From: Naegleria gruberi
Lineage: Eukaryota
NCBI GenBank assembly: GCA_000004985.1
Contig: GG738923.1
Direction: 5' to 3' (one strand)
DNA length: 64,000 nucleotides
Under the pieces are notes generated by a model. The model made no database searches. It saw only the letters and a list, made by a program, of their open reading frames with translations, and was not told the origin of the DNA. Positions 7,701 to 43,694 of the stretch are shown here, in pieces. A program made the translations under genes and the position numbers. How positions within the stretch are numbered: position 1 is the first letter of the stretch; each line of letters opens with the position of its first letter.

Positions 7701-8292
7701 TGTTGAAAAGTATTTAATCATGTATTGGTATGAAAGATCAATTGAAAGTGATGGAAAGATTCTCAATACTGTTGCAGAAAATATTGGATTTTGCTTTATT
7801 CTTTCACCATTCTACATTATTGTCCTAATGCCAGTTCTACTGAGTAGAAAAATGACCTATTTGTTGGGTATTCCAATAGTAATTCTAATTATTATTGAGC
7901 TTTACTTTTTGATTAGAAAAACAGCTAATAAGGAAAGAGATGCTATCATTATCTCACTCAAGGAACGCTCAGAACAATCACACAAGAAAGAGGACATTGT
8001 TGAAGAATTGGACACCACTCCAACCAATAACACACCAACCAATATTCAAGACGCTTCAGAATATACACGTAAAAATATTGAGGAGGATCATGATTTTATC
8101 AAATTGGAACAAAATGATTGGTTTGAGCATTCACTCCAAGATAAAAGATATCCACCAACCTTTGATAAATTACACGAAATTCTCAACACTGAGGAAACGA
8201 GAATTTTTGAAGAAGATTTGAATTTGGATGTGAACAAATTGTCGAGACAGTATCGCCATCCTTATTTGAGAAAGTTACTGAGGTTTCAGTAG
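4799..8292 (+). CDS. Multi-pass membrane protein of the OSCA/TMEM63/CSC1-like cation channel type (three N-terminal TM helices, a cytosolic domain, then a 7-TM block). Two exons: 4799..5363 and 5492..8292, with a 128-nt intron 5364..5491 (GTAAGT...CTGTAG).
   Basis: Exon 1 (MAQVLIHTSWPSNRLFFFCVLMITIIYLA..., signal/TM plus a Cys-rich segment) ends in phase 1 at the donor GTAAGT. The acceptor at 5490-5491 joins in frame to DLSIKNSIYG.... The downstream 948-aa frame has many TM helices and a TVMISNVDKT...RELRAMFGDNSIVDCHICFDY segment resembling the OSCA cytosolic region. The family call is pattern-based only. Confidence 0.55.
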
Positions 8293-8575
8293 TCAATATT
8301 TAGTCATGATAAGTTGGTTTCTTGATATTTTTCTTTCTCTTTCTCATTCCATTCAATTATTCCAATTTCTTCTAATTTCCAAATAGTACAATTTAGGTTC
8401 TAATAAACATTATTCTAAAGTTTGTGATCTTTCCCTCAGTAACTTTCTCAAATACTGTAACTGTGCCACTCAATCCTTAGCCACATGTTATGGTACTTTA
8501 CCTTCCAGTAGTTCAGTTTGTATTGGTAAAAGAACATGCACAGCTCAATATATTTGCTCATGTTTCCTCCTCAAT
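8293..8575 (+). repeat. Left arm (copy A) of a ~280-bp inverted repeat, lying in the immediate 3' flank of the channel gene.
   Basis: 8293-8575 (agtcaatatttagtcatgataagttggtttcttgatattttt...ccacatgttatggtactttaccttccagtagttcagtttgtattggtaaaagaacatgcacagctcaatatatttgctcatgtttc) is the reverse complement of 13625-13905, with a ~75-nt indel near the inner end. Directly visible in the sequence. Confidence 0.7.
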
Positions 8576-8995
8576 TGCTATCAGATTTATTTGCGCAAAT
8601 ATTAATAAGTAACAATGACGATGGTAGTTGTTCCTCTACTTCATTATTAACAACAACTTGATGCTATTGTGTTTTTAACTTGGGTTATTAGTCCTTCTTC
8701 TTCTCCGTCACTCTCACAATCTTTTTCCTCCATACTATTTATGAATTTAGTAATATCATTAATACGTTGCATAATTGCAAGATGGTTACATTTTGATGTT
8801 GTAGTAGGTGAGGAATCAAAAGAAGGGGTATAATGAGGGAATGATGGTGATGGTGTGCATGACATTTTTTATGTTTCATTACCAACTTTCACGATTAAGG
8901 CCTTTCCATCAAGTACTGGAAGAACGCCTGCCTCCTTCCATGGTACACATTCTAAATGATTAAATTTTGATTCGTGCGAGCAAACATCTTGAGCT

Positions 8996-9425
8996 GTTAA
9001 CATGTTCCTTTACCACTACAAACTGACCTACTGGAAGGTGAAACACCAAAACATGTGCGAATAAGGATTGAGTGACGGTTACAGTACTATCATAAGTTAA
9101 TGAATTTGGATGTGAACAAGTTGTCGAGAGCGTATCGTCATCCTTTGTGAACAGTCAAATCATGATAACCAATAGGAAAATGTTTACCTGATGGAATCAA
9201 CCATGCTGAACAATTGTTCCAGATTGAAAGTTTTTCCAAATCTGTGATGATGATTTTAGTGAAAATATTGAATTTCACTAAAATATTACTAATATAATAA
9301 ATAACAATGATGATGGTTGGTAGTTGTTCCGATGATCATATATCTTCCTCAACCATTCGAGCCATTCGAGCAACAGCCAATCTTCCTCTTCTTCATTATT
9401 AACAACAACTTGATACTATTGTGAG
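8996..9425. repeat. Degenerate composite copy B of the same repeat family, including a pseudo-exon copied from the channel gene 3' end.
   Basis: 8996-9095 (catgttcctttaccactacaaactgacctactggaaggtgaaacaccaaaacatgtgcgaataaggattgagtgacggttacagta) is ~80% similar to 13660-13750, i.e. the orientation of copy C. 9098-9150 (gaatttggatgtgaacaagttgtcgagagcgtatcgtcatcc) copies the last ~17 codons of the channel gene (8216-8270). 9290-9425 is a direct copy of 8610-8680 with indels. Confidence 0.6.
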
Positions 9426-9777
9426 ATCTTGTGCATTTAGCACCTTATCAAATCCAAAAATCATTTTTTAATTAAATTATAAAAAATATCAAAATAACGA
9501 ATCCTTCATCATACTTTGATCATCATAATTATGAAAATAATTAGTACCAACAAGTGTATAGAATGTGAATGTTCAATCTCATCCTGCAACAAAATACATT
9601 GTAAACAACTCGATGGAAGGACACACTTGTTTGTGCTCCAAACAAAAATTTTCGTCCAGTATTAATAGATTGATGGTTGCTGCTGTATAAAAGGGACCAT
9701 AAACTCTCCATCAAAACAATAATCAAAGAAAAGCAATAACAATAATCAGTGTAAAGTTGTAGTACATTCAGTTGAAA

Positions 9778-12700
9778 ATGGGCAAGAGAAAAGCAAGTAG
9801 TAGTATTGGCAATAATGCAAAGACGGTCAAACTTTCTCAAGTAGTACCATCATCATTGCCTGTTCAAAATAGTTCCAATGACAAGGAGATTGTCTACCCT
9901 GCTAGTTTTAATTCTACTTCAGAATTAATGAAAAAGGTCAAGGTACTCTTTACTTCCAATCGTGACGAATGTGAGAAGGAATTATCAATTCTCAAAGAAA
10001 TTAAGGGAATGTTGGATAATGTCAAGGTGTCCTACTTTAAAAATATTACTAAAGGACATCCAATGAAATTAGCTGAAGAAAATCTTAATTCATGCATTGA
10101 CAAGATTAATCAAGTAATTGGTGTTGATGTTACTTTTGTTGGTAGTTCTGGTTTAGGTAAGAGTAGTCTTATCAATATGATTATTGGAGAACCAATTCTT
10201 CCTTGTGGTGATGACATTGGTCACATTACAAGATCAATCTTGGAATTATCTTATGCTAAGAACTATGAAGTAATAGTACAATATTGTAATGAGGAGGAAT
10301 TCAATAAGAGAAGAGCCCTAGCTCCAAAAGAGTTTGCTTCCATTACCTATGAAGAAAAGAAAGATTCTCATGAGACAGTAAATAGTGTCGGGGATATTAG
10401 AGAATTTCTTGATAAACAATTTAGGGAGATGAAAGACCTGGATTTGATCAAAGTTGACAAAATTCTAGGTAAATTACCTGTACAATTGTTACAAGACTTT
10501 AATTTAACTATTCGTGATACTCCAGGATATAAATCTGGTACATTTAGTAGAATTTATCAACATTTCATTGAAAAATCAATTACAAAGACTAATATGATTT
10601 TATTTTTCAGTGAAGGATGTAGGGGAGATGTTTCTACAAGTATATTTAGTGATTTTATTAATCCTATTTTAATGAAAGCTCACAAGAATCCACCATCAGT
10701 TAAAATGCTTATTGGAGGAAGAAATATCAGTGATGAAAAGGTTATGCAATTTAAAAAACTCAAAGAAAAAGTTTCACCAAACAAGATTGATTTTGCTAAA
10801 TTATTATCCATGTATACTGATATGGATCTTGAAGATGTAATTCAAAAGTTGGAACCATTTACTGTAGATTTACCAGTAAATGCTCAATTACCTACACTCC
10901 CTGTTGGTGAAGAGTTTAATATTAAGAACTTGAGAGAAGTTTGCATTTCAATTATTAATAGATTTAATACTCTTATTGTTCCTCATTTGGAATCAAATGA
11001 ATTTGAATCTCAAAAACAAGATTTTCTTGAAAATTTCATGCATGGGCTTGTTGAAGAACAAGGTAGAATCTTACATTCAGAGAGAAAGAATATTATTGAA
11101 ATTACTTGTGCACTTGTACCATTATTAATGTCAATTTGTGTTAATAACTTTTCAGAAAAGCAAACTCAATATTATTTAAGAAAGATTGAAAATGATTTAT
11201 GTGCCTATATGTATGATATTACTCAAAAATTCTCTGATATTGCTATTGAAGAATATAATAATGATTGTGCTATTGAATCTTATGATTTATATATGGATAA
11301 ATTAAGAAAGTCAATTTCCAAAAGACTTAAAGATACTATATCATTTCAAGGATTTAAGAAAATTGCTTTAAATGCCATTTCTGAAGTATCAGAAAATTAT
11401 CCATCAATCACTCTATCCCATAATAGAAAAACCCTTTTACTTTCTAATATTGAACAAGTTTTAACTAGTTGCAAACGAAATATTACAACAGTTTGCAAGC
11501 AATTGTATGAAAATTTGACTAGTAATCCAATTTTTAGAAAAGAGTTCCAAAAGAACACACATTTGAAACAACACACAAATATTAAGAATGAAATCAAGAC
11601 TAATATGATAGTACTGACTAATTTTTTCAATTCTTTATTTGATAAAAATAATAATGCTAAAGTTAATTTAATAGTTGAAACAAAATTCAAACTTACCGAA
11701 TTATTTGAACATTACAAACATGAAAGTCAAGATGATGAATATATCTATTCTATTAATTCAAACTTACCAATTCCATCAAAAGAATCTATTAATCATACAT
11801 TCAAACTCACTCTTCCAACTGAACCACTTAAATATTGGACAAATCATGATGAAAAAGAACCATGGAATCATCTCTCAAACTGTTTAGCTACTAATGACTC
11901 ATTATTGAAAGAGAAAATATTGAGAAATCCAAGTAAGATGAACAGAGAATTAATAGTTGATTTCAATGGTACTAGAATTGACTTTTCAAATCAAAACAAG
12001 ATTCAATTATATAATCTACCAGTGATTCATAATTTGAGTAAATTCCAAACATTATTTACTGGTAATGACGAATTTATTGCACCAATAATGATATTTGCCA
12101 AAGATGAAATCAAACAAAACTTGATTTGCAACACCCTTTCAAAGAATATCAATTCAGATAATTTTTTGGTATTTATATTTTGCCAAGAATCAAATTGGAG
12201 TTCTATTTCTAAACTCGTTAAAGATAATTCATCCTGTTATGTTATTAAGGTTAAGAGTAAGAAATTTAATAAGGGAATATTTGAAACATCAGCTTTAGAA
12301 ATTTCAAAGCATTACAATTTCCCTATTTATCATACAATGACACAATATACAGGAAGAGTTCAAGAATATGTCAGTGATCTCAAATCGTTCAAAACAGCTT
12401 CATTTACATTCATAAGATATTTACGTTTTTCTCAAATAACCATGAAGAAAGAACTATTAGAAATTGATGTAACAAACTTGAAGAAAAATATTGGACAATT
12501 CTTGGCTAGAGTGAGAATATTTATAACTAAACTCACAAGTAATGATTATCAGTGTTTTTTCGATGATACTTTTGAAACTTCTAACTTGATGAACAATAAT
12601 TCAGATTCAGAATCTTTCATGTTGAAATTGAGAGAATTAGATGAAGCAACTGGTACTTCCTTTGCTGAAGACTTTCTCAAAATTAGATTAGCCACAAATA

Positions 12701-13005
12701 AGGCACGTTTAGTGCTTTGGAATGGATCCTCCAATATGGTTAAAGAGTTTAAAGTATTCAATGTCAAGAAAAATAATTATTTCATTAGTTATAGACATGA
12801 TTTAAATTCTATCAATACTTGTTATACTCCATCAATGGTTAATGCTTTGGATGATCAAAAACTTTTTGATTGTGCTTGTTTAGAAGAATATTGTGAACAA
12901 AGTTTGAAGAGTGGATTATTATTTTCAGGAGCTGGTCAATTCATTTGTTATGGATTTAAATTTGAAAAGTTTAATGATGACGATTATGAAAGTGAAAATG
13001 AATAA
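9778..13005 (+). CDS. Large orphan P-loop GTPase (~1075 aa). The N-terminal septin/AIG1/IRG-like TRAFAC G domain is followed by a ~750-aa extension of unknown function.
   Basis: Single uninterrupted ORF. The track start at 9772 is TTG; the first ATG is 9778. G1 is VTFVGSSGLGKSSLINMIIG (cf. septin GESGLGKSTLINSLF, AIG1 GKTGSGKSATGNSILG). G3 is LTIRDTPGY (DTPG). The C-terminal 750 aa have no recognisable domain and are very AT-rich. Confidence 0.7.
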   Translation: MGKRKASSSIGNNAKTVKLSQVVPSSLPVQNSSNDKEIVYPASFNSTSELMKKVKVLFTSNRDECEKELSILKEIKGMLDNVKVSYFKNITKGHPMKLAEENLNSCIDKINQVIGVDVTFVGSSGLGKSSLINMIIGEPILPCGDDIGHITRSILELSYAKNYEVIVQYCNEEEFNKRRALAPKEFASITYEEKKDSHETVNSVGDIREFLDKQFREMKDLDLIKVDKILGKLPVQLLQDFNLTIRDTPGYKSGTFSRIYQHFIEKSITKTNMILFFSEGCRGDVSTSIFSDFINPILMKAHKNPPSVKMLIGGRNISDEKVMQFKKLKEKVSPNKIDFAKLLSMYTDMDLEDVIQKLEPFTVDLPVNAQLPTLPVGEEFNIKNLREVCISIINRFNTLIVPHLESNEFESQKQDFLENFMHGLVEEQGRILHSERKNIIEITCALVPLLMSICVNNFSEKQTQYYLRKIENDLCAYMYDITQKFSDIAIEEYNNDCAIESYDLYMDKLRKSISKRLKDTISFQGFKKIALNAISEVSENYPSITLSHNRKTLLLSNIEQVLTSCKRNITTVCKQLYENLTSNPIFRKEFQKNTHLKQHTNIKNEIKTNMIVLTNFFNSLFDKNNNAKVNLIVETKFKLTELFEHYKHESQDDEYIYSINSNLPIPSKESINHTFKLTLPTEPLKYWTNHDEKEPWNHLSNCLATNDSLLKEKILRNPSKMNRELIVDFNGTRIDFSNQNKIQLYNLPVIHNLSKFQTLFTGNDEFIAPIMIFAKDEIKQNLICNTLSKNINSDNFLVFIFCQESNWSSISKLVKDNSSCYVIKVKSKKFNKGIFETSALEISKHYNFPIYHTMTQYTGRVQEYVSDLKSFKTASFTFIRYLRFSQITMKKELLEIDVTNLKKNIGQFLARVRIFITKLTSNDYQCFFDDTFETSNLMNNNSDSESFMLKLRELDEATGTSFAEDFLKIRLATNKARLVLWNGSSNMVKEFKVFNVKKNNYFISYRHDLNSINTCYTPSMVNALDDQKLFDCACLEEYCEQSLKSGLLFSGAGQFICYGFKFEKFNDDDYESENE

Positions 13006-13624
13006 ATCTCAAGATTAATCACTTGTTAACACATCAAGCTACTGTTCAATCAGGAGGTTCTCTTTTTGCTAATCAAAATATGACTATTGATTTGGATTTC
13101 ATTCAGGTTGGACAGCATTGTATTGGGATTTGCCACAAGTCCGATCACCAGCAAGATTGCAATTACAATCCTCCACTTGGATTCTATTGTACACTAGCAG
13201 ACCTTTAGGGATGGATAAACTTAAAACTAGCCTACCCTTGATAAATTTGTAATATAATAATTGGATAGTTTCTTAATAATATCAGATATTCAAATTACAG
13301 CTGATTGATTCACATCCAAAAAGTGATTTAACGTTTTCACGTTTATGGAAAGAAATTCATCCTCAAAACCAGTCATGGAATTTGGAAAATGAAACTCTTA
13401 CCATGAATAATAGTTTTAAGCTTGTTTAAATTTGGTATTGACAATTTGCTTTTAATGCATTTCCTTTGACAATTGAACTGAGAATGAAGCAACACCTTCT
13501 CCTTATCGCCCACCATTGAAACAGTTGCAGTAAATTTAGAGTAACTATTCACAGTGGAGGGAATAATGAGATTTTAATGCTTGAAACTTGAATGGTTGAG
13601 GTGGATGTTTCACATTTACTACCA

Positions 13625-13905
13625 CTGTATCCTATGAAACATGAGCAAATATATTGAGTTGTGCATGTTCCTTTACCGATACAAACTGAACTACTGGAAG
13701 GTAAAGTACCATAACATGTGGCTAAGGATTGAGTGGCACAGTTACAGTATTTGAGAAAGTTACTGAGGGAAAGATCACAAACTTTAGAATAATATTTATT
13801 AGAACCGAAATTCTTCTATTGGAAATTAGAAGAAATTAGAATAATTGAATGGAATGAGAAAAGAGAAAGAAAAATATCAAAAAACCAACTAGAGCAAATA
13901 CCAAA
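13625..13905 (-). repeat. Right arm (copy C) of the inverted repeat. It overlaps the 3' coding end and 3' UTR of the minus-strand gene at 13836..14444.
   Basis: The reverse complement of 13625-13905 matches 8293-8575. The similarity extends weakly to 13585-13610 (cttgaatggttgaggtggatg), which matches the tandem ccattcgag motif of copy B. Confidence 0.7.
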
Positions 13906-14444
13906 AATAGTAAAGGAAGTAAGGTTGATAATGCTGAACCTGCTAAACATCCAGAACTTATCATGACTAAATATTGTACAAATCTGAGAAAGTAATATTT
14001 GAGAAAATACCACAATCCACCATAATTCTTATAATAAATACTAAACTCATCGTCTAGATCATCTTGCAATTTAGTTTTCTTCTTTGTTTTGGCTTGCTGC
14101 ATGAATTTTCGTCCTAGCTTTAGCAAACTCTTCATTGGTTGATTGTGTTTTTGAACCCTTTCATTTTGCATAATAATTGGTTGTTGTTGTTGGTTTGGTA
14201 CCAAGATTGAATTATTCGAAACTAATTGTTCGTTACTTGATTTTTCAATAGGGAACTCTTGAATGATTTCATTGTTTGTTATTGTATGTAAATTCTCTCG
14301 TTTCGGTTGTTGAACAAAATACTTTCTGTAATATTGAATTGATTTCTTCTTTTTCAAAGGAGAAGAAAGGTTTCCGATAGTAGTTGAATAGTTTCCACTC
14401 GAAGCTATTGTATTAGAAGAAAAAGATTGAGAGGAGGGATTCAT
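13836..14444 (-). CDS. Hypothetical tail-anchored low-complexity protein (~203 aa from the first ATG). The C-terminal TM segment is encoded by repeat-derived sequence, so it may be a chimeric or spurious ORF.
   Basis: The minus-strand ORF is N/Q/S-rich, has a basic stretch (KTKKKTK) and ends in a C-terminal hydrophobic helix LLPLLFLVFALVGFLIFFFLF. The track start at 14495 is TTG; the first ATG codon is 14442..14444. The last ~40 codons lie inside inverted-repeat copy C. Confidence 0.3.
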   Translation of the reverse strand: MNPSSQSFSSNTIASSGNYSTTIGNLSSPLKKKKSIQYYRKYFVQQPKRENLHTITNNEIIQEFPIEKSSNEQLVSNNSILVPNQQQQPIIMQNERVQKHNQPMKSLLKLGRKFMQQAKTKKKTKLQDDLDDEFSIYYKNYGGLWYFLKYYFLRFVQYLVMISSGCLAGSALSTLLPLLFLVFALVGFLIFFFLFSHSIQLF

Positions 14445-15465
14445 TTCCGTTTGTTTTTCTTGATGTTTCAAATTTGTGAAACTGCCAACAGTCAAATCAA
14501 TTTAGAAAAGGTAACAGATGAGGAAGTTGTTAGGAAAGAAGTATTAGCGATAATGGTAGAGTCTGAATTTGAGAGTTGGGCATAAAGAGAGATGTTGATT
14601 TTGGACCTTTTTCTTTGAATTTATTAAACTTTCTAATTTTATTAATAATATGAGAATCGTGTTTCGTATAATTAAAACGGAATATTTAAACAATTACAAT
14701 AACGTTATTAATTGAGATTCATTGACAGAATGATAAGTTTCTCTTTAATACTTATTCCTTAATAGCTAATTTCTTTTTTACTAAACCAAAAACTTTACAA
14801 AAAAGATAAAATTGAAAAGGATAACAAATTAAAACTAAAATGGAACGAATAAAATCTAGCCCAATGCCACATATCCAAAATGACTAGACCACAGTCTTAA
14901 ACTGCCAGATATCAAAATAATCGAATCCAAATCTAAAAATGGCAATAATCTATTCTTATCATAATATTGTGTTATCTCTCCCTCAGTCAACCTCTTACAA
15001 TGATATTGATAGAAAATTATCTTCTGTAATATTTATTATTATTTTGTGTTGTTAAGCATTGGCCATGGTTTCAAAGTTGCACACTTTTGAAAGAGATCCT
15101 CAAGCTTGATAAAACACCAACACGCTCAGCACCATAACGCAGGTATTCAATAAAATTCGCGATGTTGTTTGAGAGCGGGAGACATTTTTGTAATAAATAT
15201 TACCCTGGTTTACTTATTATTTTTTTTCTTCTCTCTAAAAAAAGTCTCCATTTTGGCTTGATATATTTGAGTGACCAACCAAGCGTGAGAGGCAATTAGC
15301 GTGCACATCAAAGCAAGTTCAAGTGGAGTAGCTTTTTTTAGTTTAGAGCACACAACAACGAACGTATTCAATACGAACAACATAATCTCTTGATTTCATC
15401 AATCTTTATAGTTGTGATCATAACTAGTAAATAGACAAACTTGTACATATTTAAGAACCTTTCCA

Positions 15466-17023: not shown

Positions 17024-18391
17024 ATGTTCAGCGCAAAACAAGTAACTGCTAGTAAACATTTCAAAGTTTTCCTTTATGAAAACTCCTCAATTCAACCACT
17101 CTCTGAAACAACCTTGAAGGAGGAAAAACCAAAGAGTGTCCACAGACTCATTTTGGATCAAAGTGGCATTACCTTTGAGGAATTCGTTCAAAAATTGAAA
17201 ACCAAATCCATTGTCACAGATACCAATTTCAAACTCTTCTATCTCGACGATCAAAATGATTGGGTATCCTTGTCAGATGAAGAAGATTGGAAGATTTTGA
17301 ACTCAATTCTCGCTTCTGAAACTGTTATCAAGATTGTCTGCCAAAATATTGTTCCAAAGAGTGAAACTGATAACAATGATAGTCCAAAGGATCCATTTAG
17401 TGAAATTTTCAAGAATTTCAATTTGCATGGTGGTAGAAGAGGTCAAGGACATTGTCCATTTGGTGATGCTCGTCCTCAATCTGGTTGTCCATGGTCACGT
17501 GGTGGTTGTAGAAGAAGAGGTGGTATGGGAGCTGGTTTTGAACAATTTGCTCCACTCATTGAAAATGTTGTTGGATCCTTGTTCAATAATCCTAATAATG
17601 GTCAACAACAACAAGGAGCCAATCCATTCGATTTGTCATCATTGTTGAATAATCTCTTCCCAGGAGCAGCCCAACAACAACAAACTCAAGAAAATGCTCC
17701 ACAACAAGAAGAATCAAAGGAATCATCCAATATTGCCAATTCTCAAATTCCACCTCAATTCAACGGTTGGAATGATTTGATTAAGAACTTTTGTGGAAAT
17801 TTGAATGATAAGGCCAATAATGGATCTTTTAATATTCCACACTTTGGCATTGTTTGTGATGGATGTGGAAAGAGAAACTTTACTGGATCAAGATGGAATT
17901 GTGCTGATTGTGGTGATTTTGATTTTTGTCAAGAATGTTTTGAAACTAAGGCAAATGATCACTTTGATGGATTCCACAGTTTCAGCCAAGTTGAACCAAA
18001 GGCCAAGAGTTTCCTCTCAAATTTTGTAAAGAAGATGGAAGGTAATCAATCCGAATCAGCTCAACAAGAAACACCAACTCAACAAGATTCAGTTCCAGAA
18101 ACTCAATCCCATGAAAGAACTGAACAAGTTCTCCCAGAAGAAAAGCTCGATGAAGAATTATACCCATCAGTTGACAATGTCACCACTTCACAACTTCTCT
18201 CCAGTCAATTGGATTTACCAACTGCTCCTGTTGAACAACCACAAACTCCAGTTGAACCAACACCAGTCGTTGAATATGCAGTCGAGCAACAATTATTAAG
18301 AGACATGGGATTCGTTGATGATCAAGCCAATACTAGATTGTTAAAGAAGCACAATGGTAACATTCAAAAAGTCATTACTGATCTCCTCTAA
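17024..18391 (+). CDS. SQSTM1: Sequestosome-1/p62-like selective autophagy receptor with PB1, ZZ zinc finger and UBA domains (455 aa, single exon).
   Basis: N-terminal PB1 domain (KHFKVFLYE... and an OPCA-like FYLDDQNDWVSLSDEEDW). ZZ finger CDGCGKRNFTGSRWNCADCGDFDFCQECF...H. C-terminal UBA (EQQLLRDMGFVDDQANTRLLKKHNGNIQKVITDLL). An RG-rich linker and Q-rich segments lie between them. Confidence 0.8.
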   Translation: MFSAKQVTASKHFKVFLYENSSIQPLSETTLKEEKPKSVHRLILDQSGITFEEFVQKLKTKSIVTDTNFKLFYLDDQNDWVSLSDEEDWKILNSILASETVIKIVCQNIVPKSETDNNDSPKDPFSEIFKNFNLHGGRRGQGHCPFGDARPQSGCPWSRGGCRRRGGMGAGFEQFAPLIENVVGSLFNNPNNGQQQQGANPFDLSSLLNNLFPGAAQQQQTQENAPQQEESKESSNIANSQIPPQFNGWNDLIKNFCGNLNDKANNGSFNIPHFGIVCDGCGKRNFTGSRWNCADCGDFDFCQECFETKANDHFDGFHSFSQVEPKAKSFLSNFVKKMEGNQSESAQQETPTQQDSVPETQSHERTEQVLPEEKLDEELYPSVDNVTTSQLLSSQLDLPTAPVEQPQTPVEPTPVVEYAVEQQLLRDMGFVDDQANTRLLKKHNGNIQKVITDLL

Positions 18392-22806: not shown

Positions 22807-23180
22807 ATTCATTCTTCAAATAACAACAAAAAATAATCTTTTTAAACCCTTAAAAAAAGAAATTATATTTTAAATTTAATATTAAAAAATTAAATTCCTT
22901 AATGAATTTTAAATTGTTTAGAATTAACAAACACTTTACGTTTTAATGAATCTATTTAAGTCTAAGGCTCCATTCTTTTTGCTTGGTATACTTCTCGCTG
23001 TAAAATGCTATCTCTCAGCATTTGATTGCCTGGCAATCATTTAGGTACATTCTAATTTTCTGTTGATCTATAATTGCACTTCAATGTGTGTGATCATCAT
23101 GATTCACTGTGGTTTTGTATTATTATTAACACTCAAATCCTATTGTCTCAATAGTGTTGAATAGGAAAACAATTAAAAAA

Positions 23181-26085
23181 ATGCCTCCAAAATATAGTAA
23201 CAACTCCTATCGAAATTCGAATAATAGGAACAGTCATCATCATACACCATCAACAACAACACCAATCACTCCAACACCTTCATCTGGAGTACCTATTTCT
23301 AATAAAACACCAACACAAACAACAACTGATCCATCTCGTATCATTCCACAACCGCGTAGACGAAGATCAAGTGTTAATCGTGAGCAACAATCTTCTCCTT
23401 CAGGAGAATTAGAACATACAACAACAACAACAAGTCCAAATACAACCAATGGTTCTAACAATCATTCAACAACAGTACATAATAATAATACAACAAGTAC
23501 TCAAAATAATTTAGATGATGATTGCGAAAATCAAGCAGGACTTGCTACTAATGCTATTGAAAAAATCTTTAGTACCACTCTTCAATTTAATGCAGAATCT
23601 ATTCTTTCTGCTGTTGATTTGCTTCAACAAAGAAGAGAAGAACAATATCCAAATGAAAAGAGAAAGAGATTTACCATTAGAGAAATTCTCGAAGTTGGTA
23701 CAAAAAATCCAATTTGTAATGATAGACACAATGATTTACCAGATCTTGACTATAGAAAATTAGATTGGGGAATTACTCCTGTTCCACCAAAAGCAGCAGA
23801 ACTAGCAAAAAGGTATGTTTTTATTATTGTTGTATTAATAATAACAATTGGATAACTTTTTACACTACTTTAGACCATCAAGACAATCCTCTGGTATCAA
23901 TCAAAATGAATCTCTATTCGGAAGCAAACCATTCTCAGGAAGAGGAAGATCACTCAGCAGAGAAAATAATGCTATTCCTTCCAATAATACATCTAATACA
24001 TCGTCTTCAACAATAACAAATTCTTCATCAGGTAGCAGTAGATTTGCCTCATCTGCTATTACTAATAGTAGTAGCACTGTTATGAGAACAAGTGGAAAAG
24101 GAGCACTTTGGTTTGACCCTGGTATTGATACAAAGGAAAATAATCCTCTTGAATTAACCAATGAGGAAATTGAAAGAAAGAAAGCCTTTGAAGAGTTTAG
24201 AAAGATTAACCATGCTACAGTAGGAGCAGGTTCCTTCTTTGACTTTGGAGGAGAGGAAGGAGAGTCTCTTGAATCTGGACTTCATAGCTTTGATGATGAA
24301 TTACTTGATGAATCCCTTGAACCAACTTCTATGGATGAAATGGGCGGAAGTAATGCTAGTGACTTGGAGAATTACTTTAATACACTCAGCACTGGAGGTC
24401 ATCAAACACAGTTTGGTGGAATTGGAGCATCCCACTTTACTGAAGCTTCCCTCTATCCAAAAGAACAACAATTGAATGAAATTGAAGATGAATTTATTAG
24501 TCTTCCAACACCAAAATCAATGATTCCATCCCAAAAGAGAGACAAGCCACTATTTGCTCTTGATGATTCCTTGAATAAGGAACCAGTCAAACCTGTACAC
24601 AAAGGAGATCCTGTCATTTCCTCAGTACTTCAAAATAAGTCTGGAAAGTCTAGATTTGGTTTTGGAGACGGATTTGAATCTGATATTCAACCACAACAAC
24701 ATTCACAACCTCTTCCATTCACAACAAACAATGGTGGAGCAAGCAAATTCTTAAATATCAATAATCAACAAACTGGCTTGAATGTTGAAGATCAAGCTAT
24801 TTTACCAATCCATCATCAAACTCATACAGGAGGTGGAGCAACTATTAATGTAACAGCACTATTTGGAGGCTCATCAGCAATGCCAAGTCGTAAACAATCA
24901 AATCCTCCTATTCATCATCATGAAGCTTTCAATAATTTTGCACCTACAACAATTGAAAAGCATCCAGAAGAGGAAATTAATCATAACATTCACTTGGAAC
25001 AATTCCCAGTTATTGATGCATCAAATCAAATTTCAATGATGAGTGCCGAAGATTTAGAACTTCAATTCCTTAAATCATTAAATGATACAAACCAACCATC
25101 AATGCAAGAGTCTCAAGTACCTGAAGCAAACAAGATTAATCAACTTTTTAAACCAATTTCAAATGAACAAAATGTTGCACATCAAGAAGCTACCACTCAA
25201 CAACCAACTTCACAATTTGTTTCTCCATTCCAAAAATATCAAGAACAAAAACAAAATGAAAAGTCAGAAACTAAATTACCTGAAGATTTATCCCTCACTC
25301 CTTCAAAACAATCATCAGTTTCCAAGACCAGTGCAACTTCACCAGCATCGGCTGCCCAAAGAAAACTTTCAAAGACATCAGCTAATTCTCCATTTGTTCC
25401 ATCACATTTGATGAAAAAGATGGGTACCAATACTGAAAAGAAGATTAAGCTTAAGGTTAACACTCCAGTTACAAATACAGCAGCTGCAACCAAAACAGCA
25501 ACATCTCAACCAAGTAATGTTACAACATCAACAAATAATGGTTCATCTAATGTTACCACATCAACAGCTAATGTTGCATCTGTACCTGTACAACCAACTG
25601 TAGAAACTCAACAATCACCAATGATTAATCAACAACAAATGCCAATCATTCCTCAAAATGAATTTTTATCACAAAATAATATGGTACATTTGAATCCAAA
25701 CTTACTTCCACCAAATGGAAATCAACCTCCAGTTTCTCCAACCATTCCAATGAATATGGGAATGCCTATTAGCCCTCTCATGAATCAAAATCAACCTCCA
25801 ATTAGAATTTTGCAAAAGCCACCAACAGGTTTTGTGCCATCCCAACCATATCCAAACAGTCCAACTGCTTTCATTCCATTTAGTCCCCAAGGCCATCCAG
25901 TTCATCCTGGAATTCCTGCTGGTTTTATTCCACCAAATGGTAATATGTTCCCAAATGGATTCATTCCAAACAATGGCATGTTCCCACCACATCCAAACAT
26001 GTTCATGGGTAATCAACAACAAGATTTCTCTTCTCAAGCTCTTTCTCTCGAAGATTTGGAAAAAGAACTCATGAATCAAAAGTAA
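23181..26085 (+). CDS. Large low-complexity (S/T/N/Q/P-rich) protein of ~950 aa; two exons, 23181..23812 and 23874..26085, with a 61-nt intron (GTATGT...CTTTAG). Function unknown; it may be an mRNA-regulatory scaffold.
   Basis: The first ATG is 23181 (the track start at 23154 is GTG). The donor GTATGT at 23813 and the acceptor at 23872-23873 join phase 2 in frame (..AAELAK R PSRQSSGINQNESLFG...). The protein has an Arg/Ser stretch, an FTIREILEV motif reminiscent of YxxxxL-phi eIF4E-binding sites, and a P/Q-rich C-terminus (FIPPNGNMFPNGFIPNNGMFPPHPNMFMG). Confidence 0.55.
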
Positions 26086-41782: not shown

Positions 41783-43694
41783 ATGTTGCAACATTTGCCT
41801 TCTGATATCTTTCTCTTTCACTTGATTCCGTACATGTCGGGAGTGAAGGCTTGGATATCTATGTGTAATTCGTGTTCAACAATCCGATCAAAATTTAAAC
41901 AATCTTCATTGACTTTGGAATGTGAAGGAAGGGATTGTTTTCAAAATAGTAAATTTATGAGAGATTCTGTATCGGAAACTGATTGGGGAATGCAATTGCA
42001 TGAAGGCTTTGTTGCCATGTTGGAATCTGGTTTATTTTGTAAAGTTCTCTTGAATTTTAGGTGGACTAAGCTTTCAGAAGCTATGGCAAAATTACTAACG
42101 AAAGAATCTAAATGTTTGGATTTAATTTCACAATTGGAAGTTTTTGATTGTGTTGGGCGGGCAGAATCATTAATTTTGAACGCAAATTGGAAACAACTTT
42201 CAGTATTAACATTTTCGCATAAGAGCACGATTCCAGCAAAGAAACAAGAAAACCAATTGGTAGATTTTACAAAAATTGTAAATTTGGAAGTATTTGAAAT
42301 GGGAGAGAATATTAGATTTGAATTTCCAAGGAACAAAGAGCATTATTTCCAATTTGAAAGAATTGAAACTTGCAAGACATGATACTTCATTTTATGAGGA
42401 AATACTCAAAAAGTGTGATTTCTCTAATTTGGAATGTTTGGAAATTAGAAATTGCCACTTGGGAAAATTCAATTTTTCAGATATTCAATCATTTAAATTG
42501 AAATCTTTAAATCTATCAAATTCTACATTTCATAACTTAAATGAATTATTCCAACTTAAGCAATTAATTAATTTGGAAAGTTTAAGTATTATAACAGATA
42601 ATGGTAACATTTTAAAGACATTATTCGAATCTTCTATATTTCACAAAACTCTTTCTAAATTAGAAATAGAAAGACGACATACCGGCTACCATCCATGGAA
42701 TGGTGATTTGATTTGGGAATGGTTTTTGAATGGAAATTTGAAAAACATCAAACACTTAGCAATCCCTTGGATGGACATGAATGCTAATCATCTAGAAGCA
42801 TACAAAAAATCCAATATACAATTAGAAGGATTGGTTATATGTCAACTAAGTGGTGTTAATCAGAAACAAATGAAAGTGTTCAAAAATTTAACGCATTTAA
42901 AGATTAAATATCAAACAGATTACACTTTAGTTAGTGAACTGAAAAAGTTGAAATACCTATCATGTAATTGTTATGGTACTGTAATACTAAACTTACCTGA
43001 TCTTGAAAGATTAGAAATGAATTATGTTGATCGTATCTCATTGGAAACTAATAATTTGAAACACTTTAGTTGTTATTCTAGTTCTATTTACGGAATTGTT
43101 AACTCAATAATTGGATCACAAATGAAATTGGAATCATTTAATCTTTCATGCAGATATTCTAATGATAGTCAAGACCAAGTTGACGATGCTTTGTATAATA
43201 TTGCCACACACCCTAATTTCAAAACTTTGAAAGAACTTTATTTAGATTATGAATTAAGTGATGAGAATTTAGAAGATTTAGCATATAGTCAATTGAGTTT
43301 AAATAGCTTGACACTAAATTCACGATTTTTAACATGTAATTCTGCATATGAATTATGTGATGGAAGTATTGAAGCCAAAATGATCCAAATACGATTTACC
43401 CATAATTTTGTTCAAGATCCATTATTATATAGTGGCAGTTTAAATGGATTAATTCAACTATTAACTGATTTGGAAAATACGGAATGTAATGCTGATATTA
43501 TTGAGGAAGATGATTCTTGGTTTTATTATACTGGGCCAGTAACTCGATTCTTAACTTATGATGACTATTCTGATGTTTTCGGAAGAGATATTGTTTCAGA
43601 ATATAACTTTGATGATTCCCACAAAAATAAGTTTAAATCTGACAAGATTAGAGTTATCAGTAGAATTAAGTTTAATATGAAAATTTATTTGTAA
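41783..43694 (+). CDS. F-box-like / leucine-rich-repeat protein (~635 aa) with a single frame disruption near 42290-42330.
   Basis: The N-terminus MLQHLPSDIFLFHLIPYMSGVKAWISMCNSC is F-box-like. Both overlapping ORFs 41783..42382 and 42294..43694 have LRR periodicity (NLEVFEMGEN..., SNLKELKLARHD, NLECLEIRNC, LKSLNLSNS, LESLSII). The frames differ by +1 and no GT-AG intron of suitable length lies between them. The second ORF's track start is TTG. Confidence 0.5.

What the first reader, a model, noticed from the sequence alone, without database searches (positions are those of the whole stretch)
9778..13005. 1077-aa septin/AIG1/IRG-like GTPase with a ~750-aa uncharacterised extension (candidate immune-type large GTPase)
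The G domain has the TRAFAC septin-like signature: G1 GSSGLGKSSLINMIIG and G3 DTPG. These are shared by septins, AIG1/GIMAP/Toc34 and IRG proteins, and the last two families are repeatedly expanded as innate-immunity GTPases in invertebrates. I recognise nothing in the remainder of the protein. Its codon composition is more AT-biased than that of flanking genes, and the gene is isolated between inverted repeats. All of this is typical of fast-evolving or recently mobilised immune gene families.
Basis: partly seen in the sequence, partly recalled or inferred. Interest (0 to 1): 0.6.

Follow-up and report, generated by a model that had tools for sequence, protein, structure and literature searches.

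The report
Naegleria-only dynamin-like GTPase, unknown tail
The gene is real and encodes a large GTPase of the amoeba Naegleria gruberi that belongs to the dynamin superfamily (closest to mitofusins and bacterial dynamin-like proteins), not to the septin/AIG1/IRG group, and it carries a conserved C-terminal domain of unknown function found only in a handful of Naegleria-type proteins.

Summary
The ORF is real: ATG 9778 to stop 13005, 1075 aa. It is 100% identical to Naegleria gruberi "predicted protein" NAEGRDRAFT_75306, so the host is a heterolobosean amoeba, not an invertebrate.

The G1 and DTPG motifs are present but are not specific to septins. Pfam places the G domain in Dynamin_N (1.8e-13) and finds no Septin, AIG1 or IIGP match. 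A family profile hits the mitofusin G domains best. The switch I sequence IGHIT is identical to that of human MFN1. All 49 significant Foldseek matches are dynamin-superfamily proteins.

An exhaustive HMMER scan of 1.84 billion representatives found six relatives. Five are full-length and share the architecture, in three deeply diverged clades (17–22% identity between clades):
- two N. gruberi paralogues
- one N. lovaniensis protein
- two proteins from one metagenome sample

The sixth is a 347-aa fragment matching only the G domain.

The extension splits into a predicted helical stalk and a conserved ~350-aa α/β domain. This domain has no sequence-family match and only a weak, low-confidence resemblance to the GT-A fold.

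The flanking inverted repeat is real (256 nt, 95.7%). It is a duplicated fragment of a neighbouring gene that encodes an EGF-like module, not transposon ends. The AT bias is mild. An immune role has no support and was not tested.

The parts
9778..13005 (+). Complete single-exon CDS, 1075 aa plus stop (NAEGRDRAFT_75306)
   Evidence: ORF list. 100% identical over its full length to the public N. gruberi protein.
9778..9915 (+). N-terminal aa 1-46, Ser/Asn-rich, predicted unstructured; begins MGKRK
   Evidence: AF2 pLDDT 26-31 with no secondary structure. Does not align across the family.
9916..10110 (+). Two long helices before the G domain (aa 47-111), as in the N-terminal helix of the mitofusin/BDLP helical bundle
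   Evidence: AF2 secondary structure H47-91 and H97-111, low confidence. The PDB profile alignment to MFN2/MFN1 begins before G1.
10120..10767 (+). Dynamin-type G domain (aa 115-330)
   Evidence: Pfam Dynamin_N, aa 118-288, E 1.8e-13. It is the only confidently modelled part, pLDDT 55-87. Foldseek matches are all dynamin superfamily.
10141..10164 (+). G1 / P-loop GSSGLGKS (aa 122-129)
   Evidence: G125, G127, K128 and S129 are invariant in the family alignment A1.
10198..10230 (+). Switch I LPCGDDIGHIT (aa 141-151); IGHIT is identical to human MFN1 switch I, and T151 aligns with the catalytic Thr109 of MFN1
   Evidence: L141, P142 and T151 are invariant. HMMER alignments to MFN2 and MFN1. Catalytic Thr109/Thr130 as stated in PMC6820788.
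10516..10527 (+). G3 DTPG (aa 247-250)
   Evidence: D247, P249 and G250 are invariant.
10723..10734 (+). Candidate, non-canonical G4 NISD (aa 316-319); not conserved across the family
   Evidence: Alignment A1 has GGRNISD / GGRSISE / GGKNLDP / GGRSFQE / NDKSNPA / NNPNIVE at this position. The assignment is my inference.
10930..11757 (+). All-helical middle region (aa 385-660), the likely stalk or helical bundle; the least conserved part
   Evidence: AF2 predicts long helices only, at pLDDT about 40. Foldseek alignments to bacterial DLPs span 550-790 columns. Identity to the other clades is 15-23%.
11758..11937 (+). Linker (aa 661-720), predicted unstructured
   Evidence: AF2 shows no secondary structure, pLDDT 26-31.
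11938..12963 (+). Family-specific C-terminal α/β domain (aa ~721-1062). Invariant residues: P769, I800, G833, H852, E863, K869, R880, E892, R977, W981, S1004, T1014, G1051, G1053, F1055, F1060
8294..8566 (+). Left arm of the flanking inverted repeat; starts 2 nt after the stop of the upstream OSCA/CSC1-like gene; truncated copy of an EGF-like coding segment
   Evidence: No Pfam hit for this truncated copy.
13636..13976 (-). Right arm of the inverted repeat. On the minus strand it covers the 3' end of ORF 13836-14495 and an EGF-like module (…CYGTLPSSSSVCIGKGTCTTQYICSCFIGYSGSKCE…). It has 64 nt (13891-13954) that the left arm lacks.
   Evidence: Pfam EGF_2, E 2.4e-4, 21.8 bits against a cut-off of 22.1.
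8978..9086 (-). Third, degenerate copy of the same segment (82-83% identical) with stop codons

Best explanation
The gene encodes a dynamin-superfamily large GTPase that is restricted to Naegleria and its close relatives.

Architecture:
- N-terminal helices.
- An extended dynamin-type G domain. Its P-loop and switch I are closest to mitofusins and bacterial dynamin-like proteins.
- A poorly conserved all-helical stalk.
- A flexible linker.
- A conserved ~350-aa α/β domain that is unique to this small family.

Shown here: the family assignment of the G domain; conservation of the whole architecture in three ancient clades; and the absence of the C-terminal domain from every sequence library searched.

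Inferred mechanism: like other dynamin-superfamily proteins, it binds and hydrolyses GTP through nucleotide-dependent dimerisation of its G domains. G1, the switch I threonine and G3 are all intact. It would transmit the resulting movement through the helical region to the C-terminal domain, which acts as the effector or targeting module. No conserved transmembrane segment is present, so if it acts on membranes it is recruited peripherally. What the C-terminal domain does is not known. The only lead is a weak resemblance to the GT-A nucleotide-sugar transferase fold.
For: G domain:
- Pfam Dynamin_N, E 1.8e-13, 51.3 bits against a cut-off of 27; 4 of 6 family members hit it.
- Family profile against PDB sequences: MFN2 6.3e-7 and MFN1 1.3e-5 are the top hits; BDLP scores 0.01.
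- Switch I IGHIT is identical to MFN1, and T151 aligns with the catalytic Thr109.
- Foldseek of the full-length model: all 49 hits at E<=1e-3 are SynDLP, Campylobacter DLP1/2, BDLP, MFN1/2, Fzo1, IniA, Drp1, dynamin, EHD or Vps1.
- G1 to G3 spacing is 122 aa, and the intervening insert is the best-modelled region (pLDDT 74-87).
- hhalign to a giant-virus dynamin-like protein covers G1 to G3 with probability 96% and E 1e-9.

Family and architecture:
- An exhaustive HMMER scan of 1.84e9 representatives gave only 7 hits including the query itself.
- The five full-length relatives align end to end, with invariant residues in G1, switch I, G3 and the C-terminal domain.
- The C-terminal domain is as conserved as the G domain and more conserved than the middle region.
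- Its homology is significant by tblastn on its own, E down to 3e-16.

No conserved hydrophobic segment: the most hydrophobic stretch, aa 439-457, is amphipathic in the paralogues.
Against: - Both AF2 models are poor (mean pLDDT 44 and 46). The stalk and the C-terminal fold therefore rest on low-confidence predictions.
- The G4 motif is not canonical and is not conserved, so nucleotide specificity is uncertain.
- There are no expression, localisation or biochemical data, and no paper mentions the gene or its paralogues.
- Clade a has only this one member, so purifying selection on this particular gene could not be measured.
Confidence: 0.75

Rival explanations
1. One reading: a septin/AIG1(GIMAP)/IRG-type TRAFAC GTPase from a fast-evolving, expanded innate-immunity gene family.
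For: - The GxxGxGKS and DTPG motifs are present.
- The family profile gives weak hits to IRG proteins (2e-3 to 1e-2), septin CDC10 (0.036) and Toc34 (0.044).
- The family is lineage-restricted and very divergent.
- Some dynamin-superfamily members (Mx, GBP, bacterial DynA) do act in defence (established knowledge; bioRxiv 10.1101/2025.03.27.645684, listed).
Against: - No Pfam Septin, AIG1 or IIGP match at E<=1, while Dynamin_N passes its threshold.
- The IRG, septin and Toc hits cover only the P-loop region and are 3 to 5 orders of magnitude weaker than the mitofusin hits.
- No such family appears among the Foldseek hits.
- The G1-G3 spacing fits the dynamin type.
- The host is an amoeba, with only three ancient paralogues and no expansion.
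- The only PADLOC match is a marginal one to LeoA, itself a bacterial dynamin (E 0.0012).
Confidence: 0.05
2. A divergent mitofusin/Fzo-type or BDLP-type membrane-fusion or tethering protein, that is, a housekeeping organelle-dynamics GTPase that has drifted beyond recognition.
For: - The best sequence matches are the MFN1/MFN2 G domains, and switch I is identical to MFN1.
- The top structural matches are bacterial DLPs and mitofusins.
- Helices precede the G domain and a helical region follows it.
Against: - Similarity stops at the G domain.
- There is no conserved transmembrane or paddle segment.
- The extra 350-aa α/β domain has no counterpart in mitofusins or BDLPs.
- The family is limited to Naegleria-type organisms among 1.84e9 representatives.
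- Mitofusins are, to my knowledge, confined to opisthokonts.
Confidence: 0.1
3. Cargo of a mobile element, or a recent horizontal acquisition (for example from a giant virus), as suggested by the flanking inverted repeats and the AT-richer composition.
For: - A 95.7%-identical inverted repeat brackets the gene.
- Gene GC is 2 SD below the window mean.
- Giant-virus MAGs encode dynamin-like proteins whose G domain is related.
Against: - The arms are copies of the neighbouring gene's 3' end plus an EGF-like module. A third decayed copy and further patchy local duplications lie nearby.
- No transposase ORF lies between the arms.
- The repeat occurs nowhere else in the window.
- Another ORF in the window is even more AT-rich (27.7%), and GC3 is only 1.3 SD low.
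- The C-terminal domain has no relative in IMG/VR.
- Paralogues with the same architecture sit on other N. gruberi scaffolds and in N. lovaniensis.
Confidence: 0.05
4. A decaying, functionless paralogue: an orphan copy that keeps an open frame but has lost its activity.
For: - It is the only member of its clade.
- It is only 19-22% identical to the other clades.
- It lacks the acidic DxD-like motif seen in clade c, and its G4 is non-canonical.
- It sits in a rearranged region full of gene fragments.
Against: - A 1075-codon frame without a stop in 29%-GC DNA is not compatible with neutral decay.
- The invariant residues of G1, switch I, G3 and the C-terminal domain are all retained.
Confidence: 0.07

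Closest known systems
Mitofusins / Fzo1 (MFN1, MFN2)
   Same: - They are the best sequence match for the G domain (6e-7 and 1e-5 with the family profile).
- The P-loop context is GxxxxGKSsxIN.
- The switch I motif LP.G..IGHIT is identical to human MFN1 over IGHIT.
- A helix precedes the G domain and a helical bundle follows it.
   Different: - There are no transmembrane segments and no HR2.
- Similarity ends after the G domain.
- This protein has an extra ~350-aa α/β C-terminal domain.
- The G4 NRWD-type motif is not conserved.
- The family is restricted to Naegleria-type organisms.
Bacterial dynamin-like proteins (Nostoc BDLP, Campylobacter DLP1/2, SynDLP, IniA, LeoA)
   Same: - They are the top Foldseek matches, with long alignments across the G domain and helical region (E 8e-9 to 1e-6).
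- BDLP scores 0.01 by sequence profile.
- LeoA is the only PADLOC hit.
   Different: - TM-scores are low (0.11-0.16) because the model is poor.
- No paddle or hydrophobic tip is conserved.
- The added C-terminal domain is absent from all of them.
Dynamin-like proteins of giant viruses (Nucleocytoviricota), e.g. the 675-aa ORF at L001:4836-6863
   Same: The G domain from G1 to G3 is homologous, including the insert after switch I (hhalign probability 96%, E 1e-9). Giant viruses that infect Naegleria encode dynamins (PMC11043551).
   Different: Only 152 columns align. The viral protein has a plain helical C-terminal part and a canonical TKID G4. The Naegleria C-terminal domain has no viral relative.
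Nuclear GTPase SLIP-GC / NUGGC-like Dynamin_N proteins (a lead from my own knowledge, not tested)
   Same: They are eukaryotic Dynamin_N-only large GTPases with a similar G1/switch I context (…GKSSLLNALL…LPT…CT…). Hit P0006 (a metagenome fragment, 9e-6) has this look and carries what looks like a SAM domain by eye. Clade b and one clade c paralogue carry NLS-like basic tails.
   Different: The window protein itself has no strong basic cluster.
GT-A-fold nucleotide-sugar transferases (for the C-terminal domain only)
   Different: - The model has pLDDT 46.
- Foldseek finds nothing at E<=1e-3 and returns a mix of Rossmann-like folds.
- No Pfam glycosyltransferase family matches.
- The DxD-like motif is absent from the window protein (HTMTQYT) and from clade b.

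Membership tests
Dynamin superfamily (Pfam Dynamin_N, PF00350) | Match to the Dynamin_N profile above the curated gathering score | tested here: met
   E 1.8e-13, 51.3 bits against a cut-off of 27, aa 118-288. 4 of 6 family members match.
Dynamin superfamily | Enlarged G domain with a long insert between switch I and G3 (G1 to G3 about 90 residues or more, against about 45-55 in Ras-like, septin, AIG1 and IRG G domains; established knowledge) | tested here: met
   G125 to D247 is 122 residues. The insert is the best-modelled region, pLDDT 74-87.
Dynamin superfamily | Helical stalk or bundle following the G domain, and overall structural similarity to solved members | tested here: inconclusive
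   All 49 Foldseek hits at E<=1e-3 are superfamily members. However, the helical region is modelled at pLDDT about 40 and TM-scores are 0.1-0.16.
Dynamin superfamily | GTP hydrolysis stimulated by G-domain dimerisation or assembly | not testable with these tools
   Needs biochemistry. G1, switch I Thr and G3 are intact; G4 is non-canonical.
Mitofusin / Fzo | Full-length homology including the C-terminal transmembrane region and HR2 | tested here: not met
   The PDB profile alignment covers only the pre-G1 helix to switch I, plus a weak stretch at G3. There is no conserved hydrophobic segment. The C-terminal profile A2 hits no mitofusin.
Septin (PF00735) | Match to the Septin profile; AKAD-type G4 and septin unique element | tested here: not met
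   No Pfam Septin hit at E<=1. The best PDB septin hit is E 0.036 over 44 residues around the P-loop. No septin appears among the Foldseek hits.
AIG1 / GIMAP / Toc34 (PF04548) | Match to the AIG1 profile | tested here: not met
   No Pfam AIG1 hit at E<=1. Toc33/34 score E 0.044-0.074 over about 36-40 residues.
IRG / IIGP (PF05049) | Match to the IIGP profile; IRG helical domains | tested here: not met
   No Pfam IIGP hit. Irgb6, Irgb10 and Iigp1c score E 2e-3 to 1.2e-2 over the pre-G1 and P-loop region only, 3-4 orders of magnitude weaker than MFN2. None appears in Foldseek.
GT-A glycosyltransferases (C-terminal domain) | GT-A fold | tested here: inconclusive
GT-A glycosyltransferases (C-terminal domain) | Conserved DxD metal and nucleotide-sugar binding motif after β4 | tested here: not met
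   The window protein has HTMTQYT and clade b has HVVRQQ, HIVKEK and HLVKLN. Only clade c has HDD or HDS.
GREB1 / TAGT DNA- or protein-modifying glycosyltransferases (reported in Naegleria-like Heterolobosea, PMC7968844) | Sequence or profile similarity to the GREB1/TAGT GT domain | not tested
   Pfam scans of the six C-terminal domains returned no glycosyltransferase family. I did not check whether Pfam holds a GREB1/TAGT model, and no GREB1 or TAGT sequence was available for a direct profile comparison.
Two-headed DLP fusion (DynA-like) | A second, possibly degenerate, G domain in the C-terminal half | tested here: not met
   hhalign of the G-domain sub-alignment against the C-terminal sub-alignment gives probability 0.06% and E 0.76.

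The most novel reading that the evidence does not exclude
The family couples a dynamin-type mechanochemical GTPase to a GT-A-like nucleotide-sugar (or nucleotidyl) transferase domain. No such combination is known to me. GTP-driven dimerisation or assembly would gate or position an enzymatic (clade c, with HDD) or substrate-binding (clades a and b, without DxD) domain. In the paralogues that carry KKRK-type tails this might happen in the nucleus. The system would be confined to Naegleria-type amoebae.
Probability: 0.1. Interest if true: 0.6.

Novelty: new variant of a known kind. Interest (0 to 1): 0.3.

Why it matters
It corrects the family assignment from septin/AIG1/IRG to dynamin superfamily and removes the case for an "invertebrate immune GTPase".

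What remains is an uncharacterised family restricted to Naegleria-type amoebae. In it a mitofusin/BDLP-like G domain and stalk are permanently fused to a conserved domain that has no detectable relative among about 1.8 billion representative proteins. If that domain proves to be enzymatic (GT-A-like), it would be a new way of using a dynamin-type motor.

Because the genus includes the pathogen N. fowleri, and a clade b member exists in its close relative N. lovaniensis, proteins specific to the genus have some practical interest. On present evidence, however, this is a modest annotation-level finding.

Tried and rejected
Searches that added nothing:
- The word-indexed homologue search returned only the query, both with the single protein and with alignment A1. 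With the C-terminal alignment A2 it returned nothing. The candidate lists were probably swamped by low-complexity or P-loop words.
- The look-up of encoding contigs has no record for this protein.
- The search for related loci with A2 on IMG/VR found no relative.
- The search for related loci with the single protein on JGI metagenome contigs found none.
- Pfam at E<=10, PHROGs, NCBIfam and PADLOC gave no consistent family for the C-terminal domain.
- PDB sequence searches with A2 gave only noise.
- The AFDB Foldseek library was not available.
- The literature has nothing on the three N. gruberi locus tags or their accessions.

Ideas rejected:
- A second degenerate G domain in the C-terminal half (hhalign probability 0.06%).
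- A paralogue cluster in the window (tblastn found none).
- Transposon terminal repeats (the arms are gene fragments).
- A conserved transmembrane anchor.
- Nuclear targeting of this particular protein (no strong basic cluster, unlike its paralogues).
Full report
**1. The observation**

The window holds an open frame at 9772..13005 on the + strand. Read from the ATG at 9778 it gives 1075 aa. This is identical, end to end, to a public "predicted protein" of Naegleria gruberi: NAEGRDRAFT_75306, XP_002669687.1, UniProt D2W1M4. The window is therefore from a heterolobosean amoeboflagellate, not an invertebrate animal.

The window has about 33% GC, and its other ORFs carry ordinary eukaryotic domains:
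- an OSCA/CSC1-like channel
- an NBR1-like PB1-ZZ-UBA protein
- a protein kinase
- a cyclase
- an SNF2 helicase
- an RGS protein
- an LRR protein
- an alcohol dehydrogenase
- a prenyltransferase

G1 GSSGLGKSSLINMIIG is aa 122-137 and DTPG is aa 247-250. A 1075-codon frame without a stop in 29%-GC DNA cannot arise by chance.

**2. The G domain**

The two motifs are shared by many TRAFAC GTPases and do not identify a family. Four lines of evidence place the domain in the dynamin superfamily.

- Pfam gives one significant assignment, Dynamin_N: E 1.8e-13, 51.3 bits, gathering score 27, aa 118-288. Only sub-threshold P-loop matches follow (RsgA, MMR_HSR1, ABC). Septin, AIG1 and IIGP do not appear at E<=1.
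- A profile of the family alignment, searched against all PDB sequences, ranks the families as follows:

| Family | E-value |
|---|---|
| MFN2 | 6.3e-7 |
| MFN1 | 1.3e-5 |
| IRG proteins | 2e-3 to 1.2e-2 |
| BDLP | 0.01 |
| Septin | 0.036 |
| Toc34 | 0.044 |

  The IRG, septin and Toc34 matches cover only about 40-60 residues around the P-loop.
- The alignments show a mitofusin-type switch I. The protein has LPCGDDIGHIT and human MFN1 has LPSG--IGHIT. T151 takes the place of the catalytic Thr109 of MFN1 and Thr130 of MFN2 (PMC6820788).
- G1 and G3 are 122 residues apart, which is a dynamin-type enlarged G domain. The insert between them is the best-modelled part of the AlphaFold model (pLDDT 74-87).

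Foldseek with the full-length model found 49 PDB matches at E<=1e-3. All are dynamin-superfamily proteins: SynDLP, Campylobacter DLP1/2, BDLP, MFN1/2, Fzo1, IniA, Drp1, dynamin, EHD and Vps1.

The G4 position is not canonical (GGRNISD) and is not conserved in the family. Nucleotide specificity is therefore open.

**3. The family**

The word-indexed search found only the protein itself. The exhaustive HMMER scan of 1.84 billion representatives found seven proteins at E<=1e-3, including the query. The six relatives are:

| Protein | Source | Length | E-value |
|---|---|---|---|
| P0002 | N. lovaniensis C9374_003664 | 1013 aa | 3.8e-35 |
| P0003 | metagenome sample ERZ27315067 | 1063 aa | 2.4e-32 |
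| P0004 | N. gruberi NAEGRDRAFT_58724 | 1013 aa | 1.3e-27 |
| P0005 | metagenome sample ERZ27315067 | 1130 aa | 7.5e-10 |
| P0006 | JGI metagenome fragment | 347 aa | 9.0e-06 |
| P0007 | N. gruberi NAEGRDRAFT_80834 | 1288 aa | 1.9e-04 |

P0006 matches only the G domain.

The six full-length proteins align from end to end. Invariant residues lie in G1, switch I, G3 and a series of C-terminal positions: H852, E863, K869, R880, E892, R977, W981, G1051, G1053, F1055 and F1060.

They form three clades:
- Clade a is the window protein alone.
- Clade b is P0002, P0003 and P0004, 38-47% identical to each other.
- Clade c is P0005 and P0007, 35% identical.
- Identity between clades is 17-22%.

The C-terminal homology is significant on its own: tblastn E 3e-16, 1e-15 and 1e-13. 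The C-terminal domain is about as conserved as the G domain and more conserved than the middle region.

The window holds no paralogue. JGI metagenome contigs hold no close relative. N. gruberi therefore has three ancient paralogues, not a recent expansion. No paper mentions any of them.

**4. The ~750-aa extension**

AlphaFold2 with the six-sequence alignment gave poor models: mean pLDDT 43.8 for the full length and 46.2 for the C-terminal 403 aa. Read cautiously, the extension has three parts:
- an all-helical region (aa 385-660), the likely stalk or bundle
- an unstructured linker (aa 661-720)
- an α/β domain (aa ~721-1062) with a β-α-β-α-β-α-β core modelled at pLDDT 50-77

This last domain has no match in Pfam (even at E<=10), NCBIfam, PHROGs, PADLOC or PDB sequences. 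It is not a degenerate second G domain (hhalign probability 0.06%).

The DxD motif that defines most GT-A enzymes would fall after the strand that ends in the invariant His. It is HDD or HDS in clade c, but HTMTQYT in the window protein and non-acidic in clade b. The GT-A idea is therefore a lead only, and the defining motif is not met for this protein.

The family has no conserved hydrophobic segment.

**5. The surroundings**

The inverted repeat is real:
- 8312-8566 matches 13890-13636 at 95.7% over 256 nt.
- 8294-8315 matches 13976-13955 at 100%.
- 64 nt (13891-13954) are present only in the right arm.
- A third, decayed copy lies at 8978-9086 (82-83%).

Read on the minus strand, the right arm covers the 3' end of ORF 13836-14495 (hydrophobic C-terminus). 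It then covers an EGF-like module, CYGTLPSSSSVCIGKGTCTTQYICSCFIGYSGSKCE (Pfam EGF_2, E 2.4e-4, just under its cut-off). The left arm is a truncated copy that begins two bases after the stop codon of the upstream OSCA/CSC1-like gene.

Further short duplications link 8219-8671 with 9101-9423. No transposase-like ORF lies inside, and the repeat does not recur in the window. This looks like local inverted duplication of a neighbouring gene fragment in a rearranged intergenic region. It does not look like the ends of a mobile element.

The composition claim holds only weakly. GC is 28.6% against 34.3% (z = -2.0) and GC3 is 21.3% against 27.7% (z = -1.3). One other ORF in the window is more AT-rich.

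**6. How it most likely works**

*Shown:*
- a dynamin-superfamily G domain with intact G1, switch I Thr and G3
- a conserved multi-domain architecture
- a conserved family-specific C-terminal domain

*Inferred from what is established for the superfamily:*
- nucleotide-dependent G-domain dimerisation drives hydrolysis and a movement of the adjacent helical bundle
- here that movement would act on, or position, the C-terminal domain

The substrate or partner of that domain is unknown.

An immune role is neither supported nor excluded. The only links are generic. Some superfamily members act in defence, and giant viruses, including one that infects Naegleria, encode dynamin-like proteins (PMC11043551). 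One giant-virus MAG protein shares the G1-to-G3 region with this family (hhalign probability 96%).

**7. Verdict**

It is a large, lineage-restricted GTPase with an unrecognised extension. It is a dynamin-superfamily protein of an amoeba, not a septin/AIG1/IRG-type GTPase of an invertebrate. The "mobilised immune gene" reading rests on features that have more ordinary explanations.

I rate it a new variant of a known kind and of modest interest. The C-terminal domain is the part worth following up.

Noticed in passing
window 8219-9423 and 13636-13976: The intergenic region upstream of the GTPase gene is a patchwork of local duplications. There are three copies of an EGF-like coding fragment: two inverted at 95.7% and one decayed at 82-83%. 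Direct repeats also link 8219-8263 with 9101-9145 (91%), 8603-8625 with 9295-9317 (91%) and 8631-8671 with 9383-9423 (95%). The last 20-70 nt of the upstream OSCA/CSC1-like gene take part in these repeats, so its C-terminal tail may have been reshaped by the rearrangement.
   Followed up: partly
window 13891-13954: A 64-nt stretch is present in the right repeat arm, inside ORF 13836-14495 on the minus strand, and absent from the left arm. I did not resolve whether it is an indel or an intron-like segment.
   Followed up: no
window 13005-13836, minus strand: An EGF-like module (Pfam EGF_2, 21.8 bits, cut-off 22.1) lies downstream of the stop of the 219-aa ORF 13836-14495 and is not part of any long ORF. 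It may be an exon of a spliced gene or a pseudogene remnant.
   Followed up: partly
paralogues P0002, P0003, P0004 (C-terminal tails) and P0007 (aa 22-51): Strong NLS-like basic clusters (SRKKRK, TKRKRN…SKKKKD, DKKRKS…SKKRKKEK) occur at different ends of the protein in clades b and c. This hints at nuclear localisation for those paralogues. The window protein has only MGKRK at its N-terminus.
   Followed up: partly
family alignment A2, columns about 210-225 (window aa 851-857): A DxD-like HDD or HDS motif after the strand that ends in the invariant His is present only in clade c (P0007, P0005). If the domain is GT-A-like, clades a and b would be catalytically different or inactive.
   Followed up: partly
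L003 and L004 (ENA sample ERZ27315067): The two metagenome members (clade b P0003 and clade c P0005) come from the same sample. This suggests one uncultured Naegleria-like organism that carries at least two of the three clades.
   Followed up: no
L001:4836-6863 (giant-virus MAG GVMAG-M-3300018428-35): A 675-aa giant-virus dynamin-like protein (GQSGSGKSTLIN, DLPG, TKID) shares the G1-to-G3 region with the Naegleria family (hhalign probability 96%). It has a plain helical C-terminal part.
   Followed up: partly
P0006 (JGI metagenome fragment, 347 aa): Its N-terminal region looks SAM-like by eye and is followed by a Dynamin_N-type G1/switch I (GTTGTGKSSLINALLG…LLPTS…CT). This resembles SLIP-GC/NUGGC-like GTPases as I remember them. 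It may be a bridge between this family and a much larger eukaryotic group.
   Followed up: no
window 17024-18391 (+): The ORF has PB1, ZZ and C-terminal NBR1-type UBA domains, an NBR1-like selective-autophagy receptor architecture in Naegleria.
   Followed up: no
window 42294-43694 (+), 23154-23855 (+) and 23848-26085 (+): ORFs with no Pfam match and unusual composition. The 466-aa ORF at 42294 is the most AT-rich in the window (27.7% GC). The ORF at 23154 has GC3 of only 12% with GC2 of 45%. The 745-aa ORF that follows it has no family.
   Followed up: no
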